From NCBI GenBank assembly GCA_038087875.1, contig CM075988.1, forward strand, positions 930,001 through 994,000: a DNA stretch of 64,000 nt, written 5' to 3'. The position numbers were made by a program, and so were the translations under genes. The stretch is from Malacoraja senta (lineage: Eukaryota). The notes below the pieces were generated by a model. That model worked only from the letters and a program-made list of their open reading frames with translations, was not told the origin of the DNA and did no database searches. Of the stretch, positions 32,818 through 63,233 are shown one piece after another (position 1 is the first letter of the stretch; each line of letters starts with the position of its first letter).

Positions 32818-33655
32818 TAATGAGGTGATCCACCATTGCAGGAATAGAGACACCATTTAGTTTAAATGGAAAGAGAGTGCAGGACATGATTGTAAGGGTC
32901 CTGCAAGAAACATACATTTAACAAGGAAGCCCTTCACCCCAGGAATCAAACTAGCAAGCTGTTTGTGAGCTGCTTCCACTGTAAACCACATTTGGGTGAG
33001 GACTACACTTATGGAGGTTGTACTTTTATGGAAACATAAAAGACTGCAGATGCTGGAATCTGGTGCAGCAAACAATCTTCTGGAGGAACTCCGCGGGTCA
33101 AGCTGCATATCTTTTTCCCCTCCACCCCAAACATGATGCTCAACTGAGTTCTTCACTGGATAGTTTCTCCTTATTCTTGCATCCAATTGCCACCTGAACA
33201 GCTACTTGCTGTACTTGTTAAATATGTGGTTCGTGCAGGCGAGCCTCCAGACTCTTTCAGTCATGTCCTGTACACTCTTTCCATTTAAACAAAATGCTGC
33301 TTTTCTATTCCTGCCACGGTGGATCACCTCATTTCCATGCATTATATGCCCTCTGCAATTATTTGCCCTCTCGCTTACCCTCTCTGCATCCCATTGTGCT
33401 GTTCTTACAACTCGCATTCTCAATCATGATTGTATCATAATCACACCTAGTGTTTATGCATCTGAATGGCTGCTATAGATTGCGAAGTACCACATGCGAT
33501 GGTATGAGTAATGGCCCCACTGCTCACAGCTGCAAGCATCTCTGTGGGACATGTGTGCTAATATTGACAATCAGTGAGCTTTTATCACAAGTGAAAAGTA
33601 GGAAGGAAGTTTCTTGGCTCTGGTATTTAACATTACTGTATTTGTTTATTTATAG

Positions 33656-51825: not shown

Positions 51826-52751
51826 ATGTCAAGCAAACTGATTCAGTGTGATGGTTACAGTATGTGGGAGGTCAAGGACACTGCTGGTGCCTCTGGCTGC
51901 TACAAATGTGACAAGTGCATCCAGGTACAGCTCCTGAAGGACCGTGTTGGGGAACTGGAGAAGCAAGTGGATGACCTCAGGTTCGTCTGAGAAACTGAGT
52001 CGTTACTCGACAAGTCCTACAGTAAGATTGTTACACCTAAGGTACTGGAAGAGAGAAGGTGGGTGACGGTGAGAAAGGGAGGGAAACATGGAATGCAAAC
52101 GTCCCCGGGTGTTGTACCTCTTGTGAACAGGTTCACCCACTTAGAAGCTGTCGGGACAGAAGACGTTATCACACTGAGCGGCGGACTGGCTTGCGAAGCA
52201 AAAAGGACTCTTGAGACAAAACCAAAGAGGCCAACGTCAGGCAACGCCAGTGTAGTTGGAGACTCCATTGTGAGAGGTATGGACAGGGGATTCTGCAGGA
52301 ACAGACGGGATTCGAGGATGGTGTGCTGCCTTCCTGGTGCCAGGATCCAGGATGTCACGGACCGAGTGCAGAAAATCCTCAAGGGCGAAGGTGAACAGCC
52401 GCAAGTGGTAGTGCATGTCGACACAAACGATGTCGGATGAAGGGGATGAATATTCTGCAGCGTGACTTTAGAGAGCTCGGAAAAATACTGAAACGCAGGA
52501 CCTCCAGGGTGGATATCTCCGGTTTGTTTCTAGTTCCTCGTGCTGGCGAGAGCAGGAACAGTAAGATACGGGACCTGAATGTGTGGCTGGGGAACTGGTG
52601 CAGGGGGCATGGATTTGGATTCTTAGACCACTGGGATCTGTTTTGGAGTAAGGGGGAACTGTACAAAAGGGACGGATTGCACCTTAACAGGTGGGGGACC
52701 AGCATTCTGGCAGGCAGGTTTGCCACTGCTACACGGGTGGTTTTAAACTGA
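51826..52751 (+). pseudogene. CR1-A ORF1 (Cys-rich/coiled coil plus SGNH esterase), disrupted
   Basis: MSSKLIQCDG...CDKC...LEKQVDDL; VVGDSIVRG, CLPGA, HVDTND, DGLHLN; one stop and one frameshift. Confidence 0.88.
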
Positions 52752-53908
52752 ATAAGGGGGGTGGGGTGTCAAATGGGATAGTCGAGGATGGAGTTAAAGG
52801 GAAAGAGTGTAAAGGGATAGTTAATGACCCCAGAATTAACGGGAAGAAAGCTCACAAAGGGATAGGAGAGTATGGCCAAGGGTAATAGGGATCGATGTGA
52901 AAGGTGAGATGCGTAAGGAATTAAAAGTATTGTATATGAATGCGCGAAGTATAAGAAGTAAAGTAGATGAGCTTGAGGCTCAGTTAGAGGTTGGTAGATA
53001 TGACATTGTGGGGATTACTGAGACGTGGCTGCAGGAGGATCGGGTCTGGGAACTTAATATTCAGGGTTATACATCCTATAGAAAGGACAGGCAGGTGGGC
53101 AGAGGAGGGGGGGGGGGTAGCTCTGCTGGTGAGGGATGGAATTCAGTCCCTTGCGAGGGAAGACATAGGGACTGACGAGGTAAAGTCACTGTGGATTGAG
53201 TTGAGGAATTGTAAAGGCAAGAAGACACTAATTGGTGTTAGCTACAGACCCCCAAATAGTAGCCCGGATGTAGGGTGTAAGTTGCAGCAGGAGTTAAAAC
53301 TGGCATGTAACAAAGGTAATGCCACTGTGGTGATGGGGGATTTCAATATGCAGGTGGACTGGGAAAATCAGGTTGGTTCAGGACCCCAAGAAAGAGAGTT
53401 TGTAGAATGCCTCCGAGATGGATTCTTAGAGCAGCTTGTAATGGAGCCGACCAGAGAAAAGGCAATTCTGGATTTAGTGTTGTCCAATGAAACAGATATG
53501 ATAAAGAGAACTCGAGGTAAAGGAACCGCTTGGAGGTAATGATCATAATATGATTAGTTTTAATCTGCAATTTGAGAAGGAGAAGGTTAAATCGGAAATG
53601 TCAGTGATGCAGTTGAACGAAGGGGACTGTGAAGACATGAGAGAGGAGCTGGCCAAGGTAGACTGGAAAGGGATCCTAGCAGGAATGACGGTGGAACAGC
53701 AATGGCAGGAATTTCTGGGCATAATCCGGAAGACGCAGGATCATTTCATTCCAAAAAGGAAGAAAGATTCACTGGGGAGTAGGAGGCAACCGTGGCTGAC
53801 AAGAGAAGTTAGGGATAGAATAAACTAAAAGAAAAGATGTATAACACAGCAAAGAGTAGCCGGAAGCCAAAGGATTGGGAAACTTTCATAGGACAACAGT
53901 AGGAAACA

Positions 53909-55323
53909 GGAGATTGTTTGTGTCTTCCTTAGTGAAGACAGATCCGAAGTACCTATTCAATTCTTCTGCCATTTCCTTGTTGCCCATAATAATTTCACCT
54001 GTGTCTGCCTTCAAGGGACCCACATTTGACTTTGATACTCTTTTTCCCTTAACATATCTAAAGAAGCTTTTTACTGTCCTTTATATTCCCGGCCAGCTTA
54101 CCCTCGTACTTCATCTTTTCAGCCTGTATTGCCCGTTTTGTTTCCTTCTGCTGTCCTATGAAAGTTTCCCAATCCTCTGGCTTCCGGCTACTCTTTGCTG
54201 TGTTATACATCTTTTCTTTTAGTTTTATTCTATCCCTAACTTCTCTTGTCAGCCACGGTTGCCTCCTACTCCCCATAGAATCTTTCTTCCTTTTTGGAAT
54301 GAAATGATCCTGCGTCTTCCCGATTATGCCCAGAAATTCCTGCCATTGCTGTTCCACCGTCATTCCTGCTAGGATCCCTTTCCAGCCTACCTTGGCCAGC
54401 TCCCCTCTCATGCCTTCATTGTCCCCTTTGTTCAACTGCATCACTGACACTTCCGATTTAACCTTCTCCTTCTTAAATTGCAGATTAAAACTAATCATAT
54501 TATGATCACTACCTCCAAGCGGTTCCTTTACCTCAAGTTCTCTTATCATATCTGGTTCATTGGACAACACTAAATCCCGGATTGCCTTTTCTCTGGTCAG
54601 CTCCATTACAAGCTGCTCTAAGAATCCATCTCGGAGGCATTCTACAAACTCTCTTTCTTGGGGTCCTGAACCAACCTGATTTTCCCACTCTACCTGCATA
54701 TTGAAATCCCCCATCACCATAGTGGCATTACCTTTGTTACATGCCAGTTTTAACTCCTGCTGCAACTTACACCCTACATCCGGGCTACTATTTGGGGGTC
54801 TGTAGATAACATCAATTAATGTCTCCTTGCCTTTACAATTCTTCAACTCAATCCACAGTGACTCCACCTCCTCAGTCCCCATGTCTTCCCTCGCAAGGGA
54901 CTGAATACCATCCCTCACCAGCAGAGCTACCCCCCCTCCTCTGCCCACCTGCCTGTCCTTTCTATAGGATGTATAACCCTGAATATTAAGTTCCCAGGCC
55001 CGATCCTCCTGCAGCCACGTCTCAGTAATCCCCACAATGTCATATCTACCAACCTCTAACTGAGCCTCAAGCTCATCTACTTTACTTATTATACTTCGTG
55101 CATTCATATACAATACTTTTAATTCCTTACGCATCTCACCTTTCACATCGATCCCTATTACACTTGGCCATACTCTCCTATCCCTTTGTGAGTTTCCTTT
55201 CCTGTTAATTCTGGGGTCATTAACTATCCCTTTACTCTCTTTCCCTTTAACTCCGTCCTCGACTATCCCATTTGACACCCCACCCCCCTTATTCAGTTTA
55301 AAACCACCCGTGTAGCAGTGGCA
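53909..55323 (-). mobile_element. Inverted CR1-A segment (ORF1 end plus endonuclease)
   Basis: Reverse complement of 52721-53908 plus 55324-55541; APE frame open. Confidence 0.92.
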
Positions 55324-57185: not shown

Positions 57186-58055
57186 AGGAAGAAACAGAGG
57201 GCTTTAAGGCCTTCAAGGTGGGGTATAGAAGTGTCGAGTATCTGAACCTCCATAGTAAAGATGAGGGAGTGGGGGCTCGGAAGGCAGCTCATTAAAGAGA
57301 TAAAGGGCATGTGAGGTATCTTGGACATAGGTCGGGAGAGATTGGACAAGGGGCGATAGGATAGAGTCGAGGTACGTGGAAATCATTTCAGTGAGGTAGG
57401 AGCAGGCAGAAACAATGGGTCTGCCAGGGCAGTTGTGTTTATGGATTTTGGGGAGAAAGTAAAAACGGGCCGTGCGGGGCTGGGAAATGGTAAGGTTGGA
57501 AGCTGTGGAGGGTGTGATAAGCTGGAAATGATAAAATCAGAAATGGTCTGAGAGATTATGGCCTGGTGCTCATCTGTGGGGTCATGGTCCAAGGATAAGT
57601 AGGAGATGTCTGGCGCCTGGCCTCAGTGCGGTAGAGGTCTGCTCACCAGAGTACCACAGCACCTCCCTAGCCGGCGGGTTTGATGATAATGTCAGGGTTG
57701 CTGCAGAGTGAACAGAGGGCTGTACGTTCAGAGGGAGGGGTGTGGAAAAGTTGAGTTGATTAATATCATGTCGGCAGTTAGAAATGAAGAGGGTAGAAGG
57801 CCGTCCAGCGGAGTCCAAGAGGAGGGGCCGGGCGGAAAGGGAAGAAGGGATCATCACTGGGTGGAGAGGACCCCCTTCCCATAGAAAAGGGCAGAGAGAC
57901 GGAGGCGACGGAAGAAATGCTCTATGTCATGGCGGACCTGGAACTCAATGAGGTGGGGGCGGAGGGGAACGAAGGGGAGGGTTTGAGGACAGGCGGAAAG
58001 GGGGAGGCCAGGGGGGATGGTGAAGACATAACATGGGTGGAGGTTGGGGTCAGAG
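57186..58055 (-). mobile_element. Penelope-like element N-terminal fragment
   Basis: FVPLRP...DIEHFFRRLRL; degenerate KPADKGGAVV motif. Confidence 0.7.
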
Positions 58056-58322
58056 GAGTTGTACCTGGCAGGTTGTGTCTCACTAATTTGATTGAATATT
58101 TTGAGGAGCTGATAAAGATGATCGATAAGGGTAGCGTACATGATGTTGTCAACATGGACTTTTGTAAGGCATTTGATGGTGTTCCAGAAGATTAAGATGG
58201 ATAGGATCAACAGTGACTTGGTAATACAGATTCAGAACTGTCTTAATGATAGAAGACATGGCATTGTGGTAGAAGGACAATATTCAGGCTGGAGGTCTGT
58301 GACCAGTAGGTTCCCGCATGGA

Positions 58323-61300
58323 TCTTTGAGTACTGTTGAGGGGGACAGCCTTCCTGCGGGTAGCAACAGCGGCCGGGCCTCCGGCACAGAGACCAGCCCT
58401 ATTGCTCAGAAGGGTAGGGAAAAGAAGAGGAGGGCAATAGTAATAGGGGACTCTATGGTAAGGGGGTCAGATAGGCGATTCTGTGGACGCAGTCAGGAGA
58501 CCCGAATGGTAGTTTGCCTCCCTGGTGCCAGGGTCAGGGATGTGTTTGAACGCGTCCAAGATATCCTGAAATCGGAGGGAGAGGAGCCTGAGGTTGTGGT
58601 ACATATAGGTACCAATGACATAGGTAGAAAAAGAGAAGAGGTCTTGAAAGGAGAATTTAGGGAGTTGGGAGGAGAGTTAAGGAGAAGGTCTACAAAGGTA
58701 ACAATCTCAGGATTACTACCTGTGCCACGTGACGGTGAGAGTAGGAATGGAGTGAGGTGGAGGATAAATGCGTGGCTGAGGAACTGGTGCAGCGGGCAGG
58801 GATTCAAATTTCTGGATCATTGGGACCTCTTTTGGGGAAGGAGTGACCTGTACAGAAAGGACGGGTTGCACTTGAACCCGAGGGGGACCAATATCCTGGC
58901 GGGGAGATTTGCAAAGGCTACTGGGGAGACTTTAAACTAGAACGGTTGGGGGGAGGGACTCAAATAGAGAAAGCTAGTGGAAAATGTGGGAGGCAGGAGG
59001 CAGAGAAGGGAAGCACTCGGACCCAAAATGTAGGGGAGAAAGAAGAAAAAGATAATAAACAGAGAATAAGTGGTGGTGGGTTTCTTAAATGTGTATATTT
59101 TAATGCTAGGAGCATTGTAAGAAAGGTGGATGAGCTTAGAGCCTGGATTGACACCTGGAAGTATGATGTTGTGGCGATCAGTGAAACATGGTTGCAGGAG
59201 GGCTGTGATTGGCAAATAAATATTCCTGGATTTCGTTGCTTCAGGGGTGATAGAATTGGAGGGGCAAGAGGTGGGGGTGTTGCATTGCTTGTCAAGGAAG
59301 ATATTACAGCAGTGCTTTGGCAGGATAGATTAGAGGGCTCGTCTAGGGAGGCTATTTGGGTGGAACTGAGAAATGGGAAAGGTGTAGCAACACTTATAGG
59401 GGTGTATTATAGACCGCCAAATGGGGAGCGAGAATTGGAAGAGCAAATATGTAAGGAGATAGCAGATATTAGTAGTAAGCACAAGGTAGTGATTGTGGGA
59501 GATTTCAATTTTCCACACATAGACTGGGAAACACATTCTGTAAAATGGCTGGATGGTTTGGAGTTTGTAAAATGTGTGCAAGATAGTTTTTTGCAGCAAT
59601 ACATAGAGGTACCTACTAGAGAAGGGGCAGTGCTGGACCTCCTGTTAGGAAATGAGACAGGGCAGGTGGCGGAGGTATGCGTCGGGGAGCACTTCGGGTC
59701 CAGTGATCACAATACCATTAGTTTCAATATAATTATGGAGAGGGTCAGAACTGGACCTAGGGTTGAGATTTTTGTTTGGAGAAAGGCTAACTTTGAGGAG
59801 ATGCGAAAGGATTTAAAAGGAGTGAATTGGGACATGTTGTTTTATGGGAAGGATGTAGAAGAAAAATGGAGGACATTTAAGGGTGAAATTTTAAGAGTAC
59901 AGAATCTTTATGTCCCTGTTCGGTTGAAAGGAAATAGTAAAAAATGGAAAGAGCCATGGTTTTCAAGGGAAATTGGACACTTGGTTTGGAAAAAGAGATC
60001 TACAATAATTATAGGCAGCATGGAGTAAATGAGGTGCTTGAGGAGTATAAAGAATGTAAAAAGAATATTAAGAAAGAAATTAAAAAGCTAAAAGAAGATA
60101 AGAGGTTGCTTTGGCAAGTAAGGTGAAAGTAAATCCAAAGGGTTTCTACAGCTATATTAATAGCAAAAGGATAACAAGGAATAAAATCGGTCCATTAGAG
60201 AGTCAGAGTGGACAGCTATCTGCAGAGCCAAAAGAGATGGGGGAGATATTGAACAATTTCTTTTCTTCGGTATTCACGAAGGAGAAGGATATGGAATTAT
60301 GTGAGGTAAGGGAAACGAGCAGAGTAGCAATGGAAACTGTGAGATTCAAAGAAGAGGAGGTGTGGACACTTTTGAAAAATATGAAAACGGATAAGTCTCC
60401 AGGTCCTGACAGGATATTCCCTAGGACATTGAGGGAAGTTAGTGTAGAAATAGCAGGGTCTATGACAGAAATATTTCAAATGTCATTAGAAACGGGAATA
60501 GTGCCGGAGGATTGGCGTACTGCGCATGTTGTTCCGTTGTTTAAAAAGGGTTCGAAGAGTAAACCTAGCAATTATAGACCTGTTAGTTTGACGTCAGTGG
60601 TGGGCAAATTAATGGAAAGGATACTTAAAGATAATATATATAAGCATCTGGATAAGCAGGGTCTGATTAGGAACAGTCAACATGGATTTGTGCCTGGAAG
60701 GTCATGCTTGACTAATCTTCTTGAATTTTTCGAAGAGGTTACTAGGGAAATTGATGAGGGTACAGCAGTGGATGTTGTCTATTTGGACTTCAGTAAGGCC
60801 TTTGACAAGGTTCCTCATGGAAGGTTGGTTAAGAAGATTCAATTGTTGGGTATTAATGGTGGAGTAGCAAGATGGATTCAACAGTGGCTGAATGGGAGAT
60901 GCCAGAGAGTAATGGTGGATGGCTGTTTGTCAGTTTGGAGGCCGGTGACTAGTGGGCTGCCTCAGGGGTCTGTGTTGGGTCCACTGTTGTTTGTCATGTA
61001 CATCAATGATCTGGATGAAGGTGTGGAAAATTGGATTAGTAAGTATGCAGATGATACTAAGATAGGTGGTGTTGTGGATAATGAAGTAGATTTTCAAAGT
61101 CTACAGAGAGATTTAGGCCATTTGGAAGAGTGGGCTGAAAGATGGCAGATGGAGTTTAATGCTGACAAATGTGAGGTGCTACATCTCGGCAGGACAAATC
61201 AAAATAGGACGTACACGGTAAATGGTAGCGAATTGAGGAATGCAGTTGAACAGAGGGATCTAGGAATAACTGTGCATAGTTCCCTGAAGGTGGAATCTCA

Positions 61301-61986
61301 TGTAGATAGGGTGGTAAAGAAAGCTTTTGGTGTGCTGGCCTTTATAAATCAGAGCATTGAATATAGAAGTTGGGATGTAATGTTAAAATTGTACAAGGCA
61401 TTGGTGAGGCCAATTCTGGAGTATGGAGTACAATTTTGGTCGCCTAATTATTGGAAGGATGTCAACAAAATAGAGAGAGTACAGAGGAGATTTACTAGAA
61501 TGTTGCCTGGGTTTCAGCAACTAAGTTACAGAGAAAGGTTGAACAAGTTAGGTCTTTATTCTTTGGAGCGCAGAAGGTTAAGAGGGGACTTGATAGAGGT
61601 CTTTAAAATTATGAGCGGGTTAGACAGAGTGGACGTGGATAAGCTTTTCCCATTGAGAGTAGGGAAGATTCAAACAAGGGGACATGACTTGAGAATTAAG
61701 GGACAGAAGTTTAGGGGGAACTACTTTACTCAGAGAGTGGTAGCTGTGTGGAATGAACTTCCAGTGGAAGTGGTGGAGGCAGGTTCGATGTTATCCTTTA
61801 AAAATAGATTGGATGGGTATATGGACGGGAAAGGAATGGAGGGTTATGGTCTGAGTGCAGGTAGATGGGACTAGGAGGAAGTATTTATTTTTAATTTAAA
61901 AAAAAAAAATGTTTTTTAAATGTTCGGCACGGACTTGAAGGGCCGAGATGGCCTGTTTCCGTGCTGTTATGGTTATATGGTTATAT
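58323..61986 (+). mobile_element. CR1 family B: ORF1 esterase, APE and RT; 5'-truncated
   Basis: IGDSMVRG/HIGTND/DGLHLN; APE 58946-60028; RT 60111-61874 with YADD; two small deletions near 59990-60090 break ORF2; (GGTTATAT)n tail. Confidence 0.95.
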
Positions 61987-62821
61987 CTTGCTGGGACTTT
62001 GGGTGTTTGTGAGATGACTTCAACGTAAATGTAGATGGGTTGTTTCGTAAGTTTGCAAATGACACCATGATTGCTGGGGTCATGGACTGTGAGTAAGGCT
62101 GTCAAGCTATCTGGCAGTATAAAGATCAGCTGCAGAAATGGGCAGTGAAATTGCAGATGTCCTTTGACCCGAGCATGTATGAGGTGTTGCACTTTGGGAG
62201 GTCAAGTGAAAGGGTAAAATATACCATTAATGACTTGACCCTTCAACAACATTGATGTACAATCAGGTCTCATCAGGGCTCCTCCGCCATTCAATCATGA
62301 CTGATCATTTCCTTCTCAACCCCATACTTCTACCTTTGCCCCATAACCCCTGACACCCTTCCCAATCAAGAAATATCCTCTTAAAAATAATTACTATAAA
62401 AATTAGTGGTTCTACCTGATGATCTCCAGGTAACCAACACTTTCTGATCACTTGTCCCTCAGAAATGCAATGCAAAGCTGTCATGATTTGGTGAGGTAAC
62501 CGCGATAGCCTTCAGCAGCTATCACTGGAATGCATACTGATTGCCAGACTGATGTATGTATGTCTGCAGCAGGCAGCAACAAACGCTGTGAGCCTTCAGC
62601 CAGCTCACCTTGTAGAGCAGGCAGCTCATCTGCGTGGGAAGCCTAGTGTTTTGCTCATCTGCTCTGAAATTAAAATGTGTAAATCAGATTCTTCTCATTG
62701 TCCACACCAGCCCTGCCACTTTGCTCAAGTGTAACCAGAATAATCCAATTCCATGACCACAAAAACTATTCTTGGGAAGCAATCAGGATCGACAAAGAAT
62801 CTCATTTCAAGCAGTTATTAA

Positions 62822-62924: not shown

Positions 62925-63233
62925 AGTTATTAAAGGCATTATTTGCTCAAAACAAAATTACTTAATAATCTGTGGAAGAATCTACCAGATCTGCAAGGCA
63001 CATTCAAAGAATTACAGTGTGTGTTTAAATCCAAGTCACAACTATCAGATGGGATAAAGTTGTAGCTCATGTAAACTAAATGATCACGTCATCTTTATTT
63101 GCAATCTGTCCAAATTAGTTTAAGTTGGAATAATATTGTCCATCAGTTTAAATGAAGGACGCTGAGACAGGTGAGCGAGCAGCTGTGGTGGGGCGGACTA
63201 ATGTTGCTGATTAAAGGTGTTTCTCTCCCACAG

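What the first reader, a model, noticed from the sequence alone, without database searches (positions are those of the whole stretch)
58925..58975. Candidate -1 ribosomal frameshift joining ORF1 to ORF2 in CR1 family B
Seen: ORF1 ends ...ACT TTA AAC TAG, so T_TTA_AAC (58931-58937) is a correctly phased X_XXY_YYZ heptamer directly before the stop. The -1 frame reads F-K-L-E-R-L-G-G-G-T-Q straight into the APE endonuclease. That frame has no AUG until after the terminal SDH motif of the endonuclease (NIIMERV); the listed start at 58946 is TTG. A G-run (GGGGGGAGGG) follows ~9 nt after the heptamer. Known: U_UUA_AAC is the coronavirus 1a/1b slippery site, and the LINE ORF2s I know to be studied (L1, ZfL2-1, SART1) use reinitiation or coupling instead. 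Inference: this LINE makes a Gag-Pol-like esterase-APE-RT fusion protein. I cannot verify whether this is already reported for CR1.
Basis: partly seen in the sequence, partly recalled or inferred. Interest (0 to 1): 0.85.

Follow-up and report, generated by a model that had tools for sequence, protein, structure and literature searches.

The report
Conserved slippery site joining LINE genes
A jumping gene of the CR1 type ends its first gene with a classic ribosome-slipping signal that stays unchanged in very distant relatives, so its copying enzyme is probably made as a fusion protein by a one-base backward slip, something I found no report of for this major vertebrate group.

Summary
ORF1 (a GDSL esterase) ends ACT TTA AAC TAG. 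T_TTA_AAC (58931-58937) is in phase, and the endonuclease/RT gene lies in the -1 frame, open from the heptamer. The window copy is a dead, 5'-truncated member of a very young family.

The signal is far more than chance:
- Five diverged lineages in this genome and four lineages on unrelated metagenome contigs (27-39% ORF1 identity in the confirming tblastn) all have NNA_AAC directly before the ORF1 stop. It is U_UUA_AAC in most, G_UUA_AAC in one and G_GGA_AAC in one.
- ORF2 is always in the -1 frame.
- A G-tract starts 7-12 nt downstream.
- The terminal Leu is TTA in 10 of 10 sequences and Asn is AAC in 11 of 11, while other conserved Leu columns use two to four codons.
- 49 of 54 related ORF1 proteins that reach the C-terminus (rays, sharks, coelacanth, frogs) end in LN.

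My best reading (0.7) is a programmed -1 frameshift that makes an ORF1p-ORF2p fusion.

Caveats: no stable downstream hairpin was found, some lineages have an AUG beside the stop (UAAUG in one), and nothing has been tested experimentally. I found no published report for CR1. Dictyostelium TRE LINEs are said to need a -1 shift.

The parts
58325..58940 (+). 3' two-thirds of ORF1 (GDSL/SGNH esterase) of a 5'-truncated family-B CR1-type LINE copy
   Evidence: Pfam PF13472 6.8e-15. Homology to the longer relative L034 starts at 58325, with 98.98% identity over 2062 columns.
58931..58937 (+). Slippery heptamer T_TTA_AAC, in phase with ORF1
   Evidence: Identical in 30 of 30 near-identical copies and kept in diverged lineages.
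58938..58940 (+). ORF1 stop codon TAG directly after the heptamer
   Evidence: In the other lineages the stop sits at the same place but varies in identity: TAG, TGA or TAA.
58944..58957 (+). G-tract GGTTGGGGGGAGGG, the candidate 3' stimulator
   Evidence: A run of 4 or more G starts 7-12 nt after the heptamer in 11 of 12 representatives, against a background of 1 per 151 nt.
58931..60028 (+). 5' part of ORF2 in the -1 frame: linker plus AP endonuclease, ending where this copy's frame breaks
   Evidence: Pfam PF03372 1.9e-15. A 4-nt deletion near 59994 relative to L034.
60111..61874 (+). Reverse-transcriptase part of ORF2, out of frame with the endonuclease part in this copy
   Evidence: Pfam PF00078 1.1e-35. 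A second, 1-nt deletion near 60083.
61925..61987 (+). 3' end of the element: inverted repeat (GCACGGA...TCCGTGC) followed by the octamer repeat (TATGGTTA)2.4, with no poly(A)
   Evidence: That this is a CR1 hallmark is recalled, not tested.
52742..52766 (+). Junction of a second, diverged lineage (A): T_TTA_AAC, TGA, then GGGGGGTGGGG starting 7 nt after the heptamer
   Evidence: ORF1 is 45-60% identical to family B.
55293..55302 (-). Second lineage-A copy: heptamer plus TGA, with the -1 frame open into the endonuclease

Best explanation
The ORF1/ORF2 junction of this esterase-type CR1 LINE is a programmed -1 ribosomal frameshift site.

Most ribosomes translating the element's single mRNA stop at the ORF1 stop codon and release the esterase protein. 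A minority slip back one base on U_UUA_AAC and continue into the endonuclease/reverse-transcriptase frame. The slip could be a tandem slip with AAC in the A site. It could also be a slip of tRNA-Asn on A_AAC while the adjacent stop codon waits in the A site. The product is an ORF1p-ORF2p fusion with the junction ...T-L-N-L-E-R..., at a fixed low ratio, as in retroviral Gag/Gag-Pol.

Shown here:
- the heptamer, its phase, the adjacent stop and the -1 frame relation;
- an open -1 frame from the heptamer onward;
- deep conservation of all of these at synonymous positions.

Inferred:
- that slipping actually occurs;
- that the G-tract 7-12 nt downstream is the stimulator, and how it would act;
- the efficiency of the shift.
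For: (1) The anatomy is as described.

(2) Five lineages in the host genome keep T_TTA_AAC directly before the stop. They are B, its 88%-identical sister Bs, A, C and D, with ORF1 identity down to 45-60%. The stop codon itself differs between them: TAG, TAG, TGA, TAA, TAA.

(3) Metagenome contigs were fetched with esterase motifs only, so the sample is unbiased with respect to the heptamer. Eight of these loci gave both an esterase and an endonuclease hit.
- In 6 of the 8, the stop that closes the esterase frame is the junction, directly preceded by U_UUA_AAC (L065, L066, L069, L071), G_UUA_AAC (L062) or G_GGA_AAC (L061), with the endonuclease in the -1 frame.
- The other two, L063 and L088, are broken copies. 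L063 still contains TTTAAAC TAG followed by a G-tract.
- The -1 ORFs of L069, L062 and L061 are endonuclease plus RT by Pfam.

(4) Codon test on the last 100 codons of 10 representatives:
- Four other conserved Leu columns use 2-4 codons each, and TTA makes up 2 of 37 of those codons.
- A conserved Asn column is AAT 7, AAC 2.
- The terminal Leu is TTA in 9 of 9 and the terminal Asn is AAC in 10 of 10. With lineage D these become 10 of 10 and 11 of 11.
- The preceding codon is ACT, ACT, GTT, GGT, TCT, GCT, GCT, GCT, GAT or TCG. The wobble base is T in 9 of 10 although the amino acid changes.
- Between lineages, identical residues share the same codon in only 26-62% of cases.

(5) Of 74 ORF1 homologues, 54 reach the C-terminal region. 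The named ones come from skates, rays, sharks, coelacanth and frogs; one carries a bacterial label and one a flatworm label, both likely contaminants.
- 49 end in LN, 1 in IN, 1 in GN and 1 in LNLNG; 2 differ.
- The residue before LN can be encoded by an NNT codon in 46 of 49.
- Two stingray gene models read G-F-K-L across the junction, which is the -1 reading of GGT TTA AAC T.

(6) The -1 frame is open from the heptamer for at least 91 codons in 12 of 12 representatives. Upstream of the heptamer it closes within 2-37 codons.

(7) A start codon is not conserved.

(8) A run of 4 or more G begins 7-12 nt after the heptamer in 11 of 12 representatives, against a background of 1 per 151 nt. Lineage D has one as well.

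(9) PolyA RNA-seq reads of a related organism cross the junction. At a threshold of 3% or more there were no insertions, deletions or splice-like joints, so no RNA-level joining of the frames was seen.
Against: - There is no experimental evidence of a transframe product.
- No stable nested RNA structure follows the site. The z-scores of the 100 nt downstream are +0.45, +0.05, +1.16, +1.08, +1.03, -1.03 and +0.29 in the 7 valid folds.
- A G-quadruplex at the G-tract is predicted in only 2 of 11 sequences.
- The G-tract also encodes a Gly-rich linker (GGG or GEG), so protein-level selection could explain part of it.
- Some lineages carry an AUG in the ORF2 frame at or near the stop: UAAUG in D, ATG 5 nt after the stop in L065 and L069, and ATG 9 nt before the stop in L061. 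That would permit termination-reinitiation.
- One lineage has G_UUA_AAC, which is not a perfect X_XXY.
- The lineages are related, so the counts are not fully independent.
- In the RNA reads of the related organism, most copies have G>C inside the six-G run.
Confidence: 0.7

Rival explanations
1. Termination-reinitiation or translational coupling. Ribosomes finish ORF1 at the stop, and some 40S subunits restart in the ORF2 frame at a nearby AUG or at a non-AUG codon. SART1 (UAAUG) and human L1 ORF2 (AUG-independent) are described as working this way. On this reading the heptamer is conserved for another reason.
For: - Lineage D has UAAUG at the junction.
- L065 and L069 have an in-frame ATG 5 nt after the stop, and L061 has one 9 nt before it.
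- SART1 coupling and the unclear L1 mechanism are described in the passages of PMC3708506 that I read.
- No strong frameshift-stimulating hairpin was found.
Against: - No AUG lies before the endonuclease in B or Bs. None lies within 22 codons of the heptamer in A, C, L071, L062 or L066, and near-cognate codons are not conserved in position.
- Reinitiation does not explain the invariant TTA and AAC codons, the conserved wobble T of a variable residue, the constant -1 relation, or the switch to another canonical heptamer (G_GGA_AAC) in L061.
- No TGGGA motif lies within 90 nt upstream of the stop in 0 of 12 sequences. That this motif marks calicivirus-type reinitiation is recalled.
Confidence: 0.2
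2. The terminal Leu-Asn is a functional C-terminal motif of ORF1p. The heptamer would then be a by-product, with ORF2 expressed by some unrelated route.
For: 49 of the 54 ORF1 homologues that reach the C-terminus end in LN.
Against: - Protein-level selection would allow six Leu and two Asn codons, but only TTA and AAC are seen (10 of 10 and 11 of 11).
- The third base of the preceding, variable codon is also fixed, in 9 of 10.
- One lineage replaces L-N by G-N using another slippery heptamer.
Confidence: 0.05
3. The two frames are joined at the RNA level (splicing, editing or polymerase slippage), or the arrangement is a chance feature of one dead copy.
For: The window copy itself is dead: it is 5'-truncated and has two frame-breaking deletions.
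Against: - RNA-seq reads across the junction showed no insertions, deletions or joints at 3% or more. Those reads come from a related organism and from both orientations.
- The same junction is found in 30 of 30 near-identical copies and in nine lineages.
Confidence: 0.03

Closest known systems
Coronavirus and arterivirus ORF1a/1b -1 frameshift sites (U_UUA_AAC, G_UUA_AAC) (recalled knowledge)
   Same: The heptamers are identical. A downstream polymerase-containing frame is reached by a -1 shift at the end of the upstream frame.
   Different: The viral sites are followed by a well-defined pseudoknot 5-7 nt downstream. Here no stable structure was found. Instead, a G-tract and an immediately adjacent stop codon are conserved.
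Gag-Pol -1 frameshifting of retroviruses and animal LTR retrotransposons; PEG10 (passages of PMC5009743 read; the PEG10 heptamer G_GGA_AAC is recalled)
   Same: A structural or accessory first protein and a rarer fusion to the RT-containing protein. One metagenome lineage (L061) uses G_GGA_AAC.
   Different: This is a non-LTR element with no protease to separate the fusion, and its first protein is an esterase, not a capsid. The review passages that my term search returned (it covers only the first 300,000 characters held) mention HeT-A, TART and mammalian LINEs but no CR1 frameshift site.
Dictyostelium TRE5-A and TRE3-A non-LTR retrotransposons (passage of PMC5911963 read)
   Same: These are APE-type LINEs with two ORFs that are stated to require a -1 frameshift for ORF2 translation.
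   Different: They belong to a different clade and host. I did not see their sequences or the primary papers, so I could not compare the heptamer, the stop position or the conservation.
SART1 UAAUG translational coupling and AUG-independent ORF2 translation of human L1 (passages of PMC3708506 read)
   Same: A bicistronic LINE mRNA in which ORF2 expression is tied to the end of ORF1. Lineage D even has UAAUG.
   Different: Those mechanisms give a separate ORF2p and need no slippery heptamer. The window's family has no AUG before the endonuclease.
'Shifty stop' -1 slippage (potato virus M), protein-stimulated frameshifting on a linear motif (arterivirus nsp1-beta with poly(C)-binding protein) and G-quadruplex-stimulated shifts in reporters (all recalled)
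   Same: An adjacent stop codon, and a linear purine-rich or G-rich element a few nucleotides downstream instead of a hairpin.
   Different: None of these is established for a LINE, and none was tested here.

Membership tests
Canonical -1 programmed ribosomal frameshift site | X_XXY_YYZ heptamer in phase with the upstream ORF | tested here: met
   T_TTA_AAC at 58931-58937 is in the ORF1 phase. Five host lineages keep the same heptamer. Of the four metagenome lineages, two have U_UUA_AAC, one has G_GGA_AAC, and one has the imperfect G_UUA_AAC.
Canonical -1 programmed ribosomal frameshift site | Downstream ORF in the -1 frame, open from the shift site | tested here: met
   12 of 12 representatives are open for at least 91 codons from the heptamer. 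The endonuclease is in the -1 frame in 6 of 8 metagenome loci that gave both domain hits; the other two are broken copies.
Canonical -1 programmed ribosomal frameshift site | Conservation of the heptamer at synonymous positions across diverged relatives | tested here: met
   TTA in 10 of 10, AAC in 11 of 11 and the preceding wobble T in 9 of 10. Other conserved Leu and Asn columns vary.
Canonical -1 programmed ribosomal frameshift site | Stable stem-loop or pseudoknot 5-9 nt downstream | tested here: inconclusive
   Nested folds are no more stable than shuffled sequence in 7 of 7 valid tests (z from -1.03 to +1.16). Pseudoknots were not modelled. A G-tract is conserved at 7-12 nt. A G-quadruplex at the tract is predicted in 2 of 11.
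Canonical -1 programmed ribosomal frameshift site | Demonstrated transframe protein | not testable with these tools
   This needs reporter assays, in vitro translation, mass spectrometry or ribosome profiling.
CR1-group LINE with esterase-type ORF1 | ORF2 with AP endonuclease and reverse transcriptase | tested here: met
   PF03372 at 1.9e-15 and PF00078 at 1.1e-35.
CR1-group LINE with esterase-type ORF1 | ORF1 with an SGNH/GDSL esterase domain | tested here: met
   PF13472 at 6.8e-15. The only solved relative is the 'ORF1-encoded protein' 4c1b, at 2e-30.
CR1-group LINE with esterase-type ORF1 | 3' end with a hairpin and short (octamer) tandem repeat, and no poly(A) tail (feature recalled) | tested here: met
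   An inverted repeat and (TATGGTTA)2.4 at 61925-61987.
CR1-group LINE with esterase-type ORF1 | RT phylogeny that places it in the CR1 clade rather than L2 | not tested
   No tree was built. 'CR1' is used here in the group sense.
SART1-type stop-start coupling | AUG overlapping or adjacent to the ORF1 stop | tested here: not met
   The window's family has no AUG for 268 codons from the heptamer. Lineage D (UAAUG) meets this feature, and L065 and L069 nearly do.

The most novel reading that the evidence does not exclude
Esterase-type CR1 LINEs from cartilaginous fish to frogs, and more distant relatives seen on metagenome contigs, all make ORF2p as an ORF1p-ORF2p fusion through one ancient -1 frameshift cassette.

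The core of the cassette would be A_AAC plus an immediately adjacent stop codon. Its stimulator would not be a hairpin or pseudoknot but a linear two-block G-tract (G4-7, 1-4 nt, G3-4) 7-12 nt downstream. That tract could act as a G-quadruplex or through a bound protein, possibly the element's own ORF1p.
Probability: 0.3. Interest if true: 0.85.

Novelty: new member of a known kind. Interest (0 to 1): 0.7.

Why it matters
The abstract of PMC13343379 (listing) describes the CR1 group as the dominant retrotransposon in most vertebrates. How the second ORF of two-ORF LINEs is translated is called 'not clear' in PMC3708506.

A conserved -1 frameshift would have several consequences:
- It would set the ORF1p:ORF2p ratio.
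- It would tether the reverse transcriptase physically to the esterase protein, which bears on cis-preference and on membrane association.
- It would give annotators a rule for calling ORF2 in these elements.
- It would add a very abundant natural frameshift site, in vertebrate genomes, with an unusual context: an adjacent stop and a G-tract.

The signal is short and can be tested directly in standard reporters.

Tried and rejected
- Downstream hairpin: nested folding of the 100 nt after the site gave no signal. One of the eight sequences, L039, was given wrong coordinates and is disregarded.
- G-quadruplex-aware folding placed a quadruplex at the tract only in lineage C.
- A 5-bp long-range pairing of the G-tract with a pyrimidine patch about 70 nt downstream appears in several lineages. 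It is too weak, and too easy to obtain by chance, to claim.
- A hairpin 24-27 nt downstream in the L065/L069/L071 group is conserved but shows no covariation. I saw this by eye in the output.
- A calicivirus-type TGGGA motif upstream was absent in 12 of 12.
- Searches for more lineages:
  - A scan of viral contigs found none.
  - The 6 genome-contig loci carried no slippery heptamer before the stop and no endonuclease hit. At least four appear to be bacterial GDSL genes; L113 and L115 were not characterised.
  - Own-genome searches with PF13472 and with the coelacanth protein returned mostly family B and its relatives.
- A search for longer fused proteins gave only 2 hits, both chimeric gene models.
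- RNA: no RNA holder was listed by the index. Only one raw RNA run, from a related organism, could be laid. It shows presence of the junction in RNA, not translation.
- Earlier findings of this scan: none for this genome or sequence.
- Literature searches for a CR1 frameshift report found none:
  - searches;
  - term searches inside PMC13343379, PMC5009743, PMC4120745, PMC3905857, PMC3708506, PMC1947958 and PMC4255032.
- Kapitonov and Jurka 2003 and Nakamura et al. 2012 are not held. An earlier mention there cannot be excluded.
Full report
**What is in the window**

ORF1 ends ACT TTA AAC TAG. T_TTA_AAC is at 58931-58937, in phase, and the stop is at 58938-58940. The -1 frame runs on into an ORF that begins, by the mechanical ORF list, at a TTG at 58946.

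Pfam assigns the three ORFs as follows:
- ORF1: GDSL-type esterase, PF13472, 6.8e-15.
- Next ORF: AP endonuclease, PF03372, 1.9e-15.
- ORF at 60111-61874: reverse transcriptase, PF00078, 1.1e-35.

The element ends near 61987 with an inverted repeat and an octamer repeat, and has no poly(A). I recall that this is typical of CR1.

The copy is dead. Homology to a longer relative (L034) starts only at 58325, so the first third of ORF1 is missing. The 5' part of the listed ORF1 is read-in from an older RT fragment. Two small deletions near 59994 and 60083 break ORF2.

**The family**

The junction stretch has at least 458 candidate matches in the 1.94-Gb genome. All 40 that were scored are 99-100% identical, and 30 of 30 fetched copies have the same heptamer and stop. 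Esterase-type ORF1s are very numerous: 10,369 and 22,098 first-look candidates in two searches.

In L034, which is unbroken over the stretch held, the -1 frame from the heptamer stays open for 485 codons to the end of the locus, through the endonuclease. The first Met is at codon 268.

Near-identical copies say nothing about selection, so I looked for diverged lineages.

**Diverged lineages in the same genome**

| Lineage | Where seen | Last ORF1 codons, then stop | Sequence after the stop |
|---|---|---|---|
| A (ORF1 45-60% identical to B) | two junctions in the window, 52742 (+) and 55302 (-) | GTT TTA AAC TGA | ATAA GGGGGGTGGGG |
| Bs (sister subfamily, about 88% identical) | fetched loci | ACT TTA AAC TAG | TATGGTT GGGGGGAGGG |
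| C | L039, L012 | GGT TTA AAC TAA | ATAGT GGGGGGGAGGG |
| D | L145 | GAT TTA AAC TAA | TGTGGCA GGGGAATGGG |

The heptamer is constant. The stop stays at the same place but changes identity. The residue before Leu changes, yet its third base stays T.

**Distant relatives from elsewhere**

I fetched loci from metagenome contigs with an alignment of 32 ORF1 esterases. The scan used esterase motifs only, so it is blind to the junction. Eight loci gave both an esterase and an endonuclease hit.
- In six of them the stop that closes the esterase frame is the junction, and it is directly preceded by a slippery heptamer.
- The heptamer is U_UUA_AAC in L065, L066, L069 and L071, G_UUA_AAC in L062 and G_GGA_AAC in L061.
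- In those six the endonuclease is in the -1 frame.
- The two others (L063, L088) are visibly broken. L063 still carries TTTAAAC TAG and a G-tract.

The -1 ORFs of L069, L062 and L061 contain endonuclease and RT domains. These ORF1s were 27-39% identical to the query in the confirming tblastn.

**Codon-level test (with lineage D)**

I compared the last 100 codons of ten representatives.
- Four other conserved Leu columns use two to four different codons each; TTA makes up 2 of 37 of those codons.
- A conserved Asn column is AAT 7, AAC 2.
- Across lineages, identical residues share the same codon in only 26-62% of cases.
- Against this background the terminal Leu is TTA in 10 of 10 and the terminal Asn is AAC in 11 of 11.
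- The wobble base before them is T in 9 of 10. The exception is the G_UUA_AAC lineage.

The one lineage without Leu has swapped to another canonical heptamer. The invariant core is NNA_AAC followed by a stop.

**Protein-level breadth**

A search with the full ORF1 gave 74 homologues. The named ones are from skates, rays, sharks, coelacanth and frogs, down to 31% identity.
- 54 of the 74 reach the C-terminal region. Of these, 49 end in LN, one in IN, one in GN, one in LNLNG, and two differ.
- The residue before LN can be encoded by a codon ending in T in 46 of 49.
- Two stingray gene models cross the junction reading G-F-K-L, the -1 reading of GGT TTA AAC T.

**Frame and start codons**

The -1 frame is open from the heptamer for at least 91 codons in 12 of 12 representatives, and it closes 2-37 codons upstream of the heptamer.

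An AUG is not conserved.
- B and Bs have none before the endonuclease.
- A has Met 25 or 56 codons after the heptamer, and C has one at codon 64 or 67.
- D has UAAUG at the stop.
- L065 and L069 have ATG 5 nt after the stop.
- L061 has ATG 9 nt before the stop.

This is the main evidence for the rival explanation, termination-reinitiation, in some lineages. It does not explain the conserved heptamer.

**Downstream element**

A run of four or more G starts 7-12 nt after the heptamer in 11 of 12 representatives. The twelfth has GGGAGGGAGGG. The background in the same elements is one such run per 151 nt. The usual form is two G blocks separated by 1-4 nt.

- The 100 nt downstream fold no better than shuffled sequence (z from -1.03 to +1.16 in 7 valid folds).
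- A G-quadruplex at the tract is predicted only in lineage C.
- The tract also encodes Gly-rich residues.
- Downstream of the tract, a CAAAT motif is kept in B, A and C. It lies 23, 21 and 24 nt from the heptamer, so its reading frame in B differs from that in A and C (output). This hints at RNA-level rather than protein-level constraint.

The stimulator therefore remains unidentified.

**RNA**

The one raw polyA RNA-seq run that could be laid (coded X24) is from a related organism. It covers the junction at about 220-390 reads per bin in each orientation. It shows no insertions, deletions or joints at 3% or more. This argues against splicing or editing as the way the frames are joined. It says nothing about translation, and the two orientations are about equal.

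**Comparison with what is known**

The heptamer is the one I recall from coronaviruses. The overall logic is that of Gag/Gag-Pol.

- The passages I read in the large recoding review (PMC5009743) mention HeT-A, TART and mammalian LINEs but no CR1 frameshift site.
- PMC3708506 calls ORF2 translation in two-ORF LINEs unclear, and cites SART1 coupling.
- The 2026 survey of CR1-group elements contains none of the words frameshift, overlap, slippery, reinitiation, start codon, intergenic or translation.
- A lead from an earlier finding of this scan (e1-7350016) took me to a review stating that Dictyostelium TRE5-A and TRE3-A need a -1 frameshift for ORF2. The idea is therefore not new for LINEs in general.
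- My searches found no report for CR1. Kapitonov and Jurka 2003 and the Repbase notes could not be read.

**Verdict**

I put a programmed -1 frameshift at 0.7, reinitiation or coupling as the main route at 0.2, and other explanations at 0.1 or less together. I file it as a new member of a known kind, with an unusual context (an adjacent stop and a G-tract, with no evident hairpin) that could turn out to be a new variant.

Noticed in passing
L050; L139-L141 and L147-L149 (host genome): The same ORF1 type is joined to different ORF2 N-termini. In L050 a B-type ORF1 and heptamer are followed, after about 30 shared codons, by the ORF2 leader that is also seen behind A-type ORF1s. This suggests recombination between lineages close to the junction.
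   Followed up: partly
L145 (host genome lineage D): The junction reads TTTAAAC TAA TG..., so it has both the slippery heptamer and a UAAUG stop-start overlap of the kind described for SART1.
   Followed up: partly
window 10856, 21888, 32857-32866 (-), 48304, 63143-63152 (-): There are five further TTTAAAC-plus-stop strings with no LINE ORF1 context. Together with the three junctions this makes 8, against 0.88 expected. The five may lie in other repeats.
   Followed up: no
window 58055-58328: The family-B copy abuts an older, diverged RT fragment in the same orientation. This extends the apparent ORF1 upstream by about 60 codons.
   Followed up: partly
P0029, P0064, P0032, P0076, P0057/P0058, P0077 (and 76 listings): Public records carry LINE ORF1 sequence under other labels. 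One is called an SGNH/GDSL hydrolase of Pseudomonas aeruginosa and one is labelled Protopolystoma xenopodis (a flatworm); both end in LN and are probably contamination by vertebrate DNA. Several ray and sawfish gene models (ribosomal protein S24, hydroxyacid oxidase 2, TMEM204, VSIG10-like) have absorbed ORF1 pieces.
   Followed up: no
window 58952: In the RNA reads of the related organism, most copies have C instead of G inside the six-G run (183 of 209 and 215 of 235 reads). The length of the first G block therefore varies between related families.
   Followed up: no
L065, L069, L071, about 24-50 nt after the heptamer: A short hairpin (for example CCAGGC...GCCUGG) is kept in this metagenome lineage downstream of the G-tract. 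I saw no covariation.
   Followed up: partly
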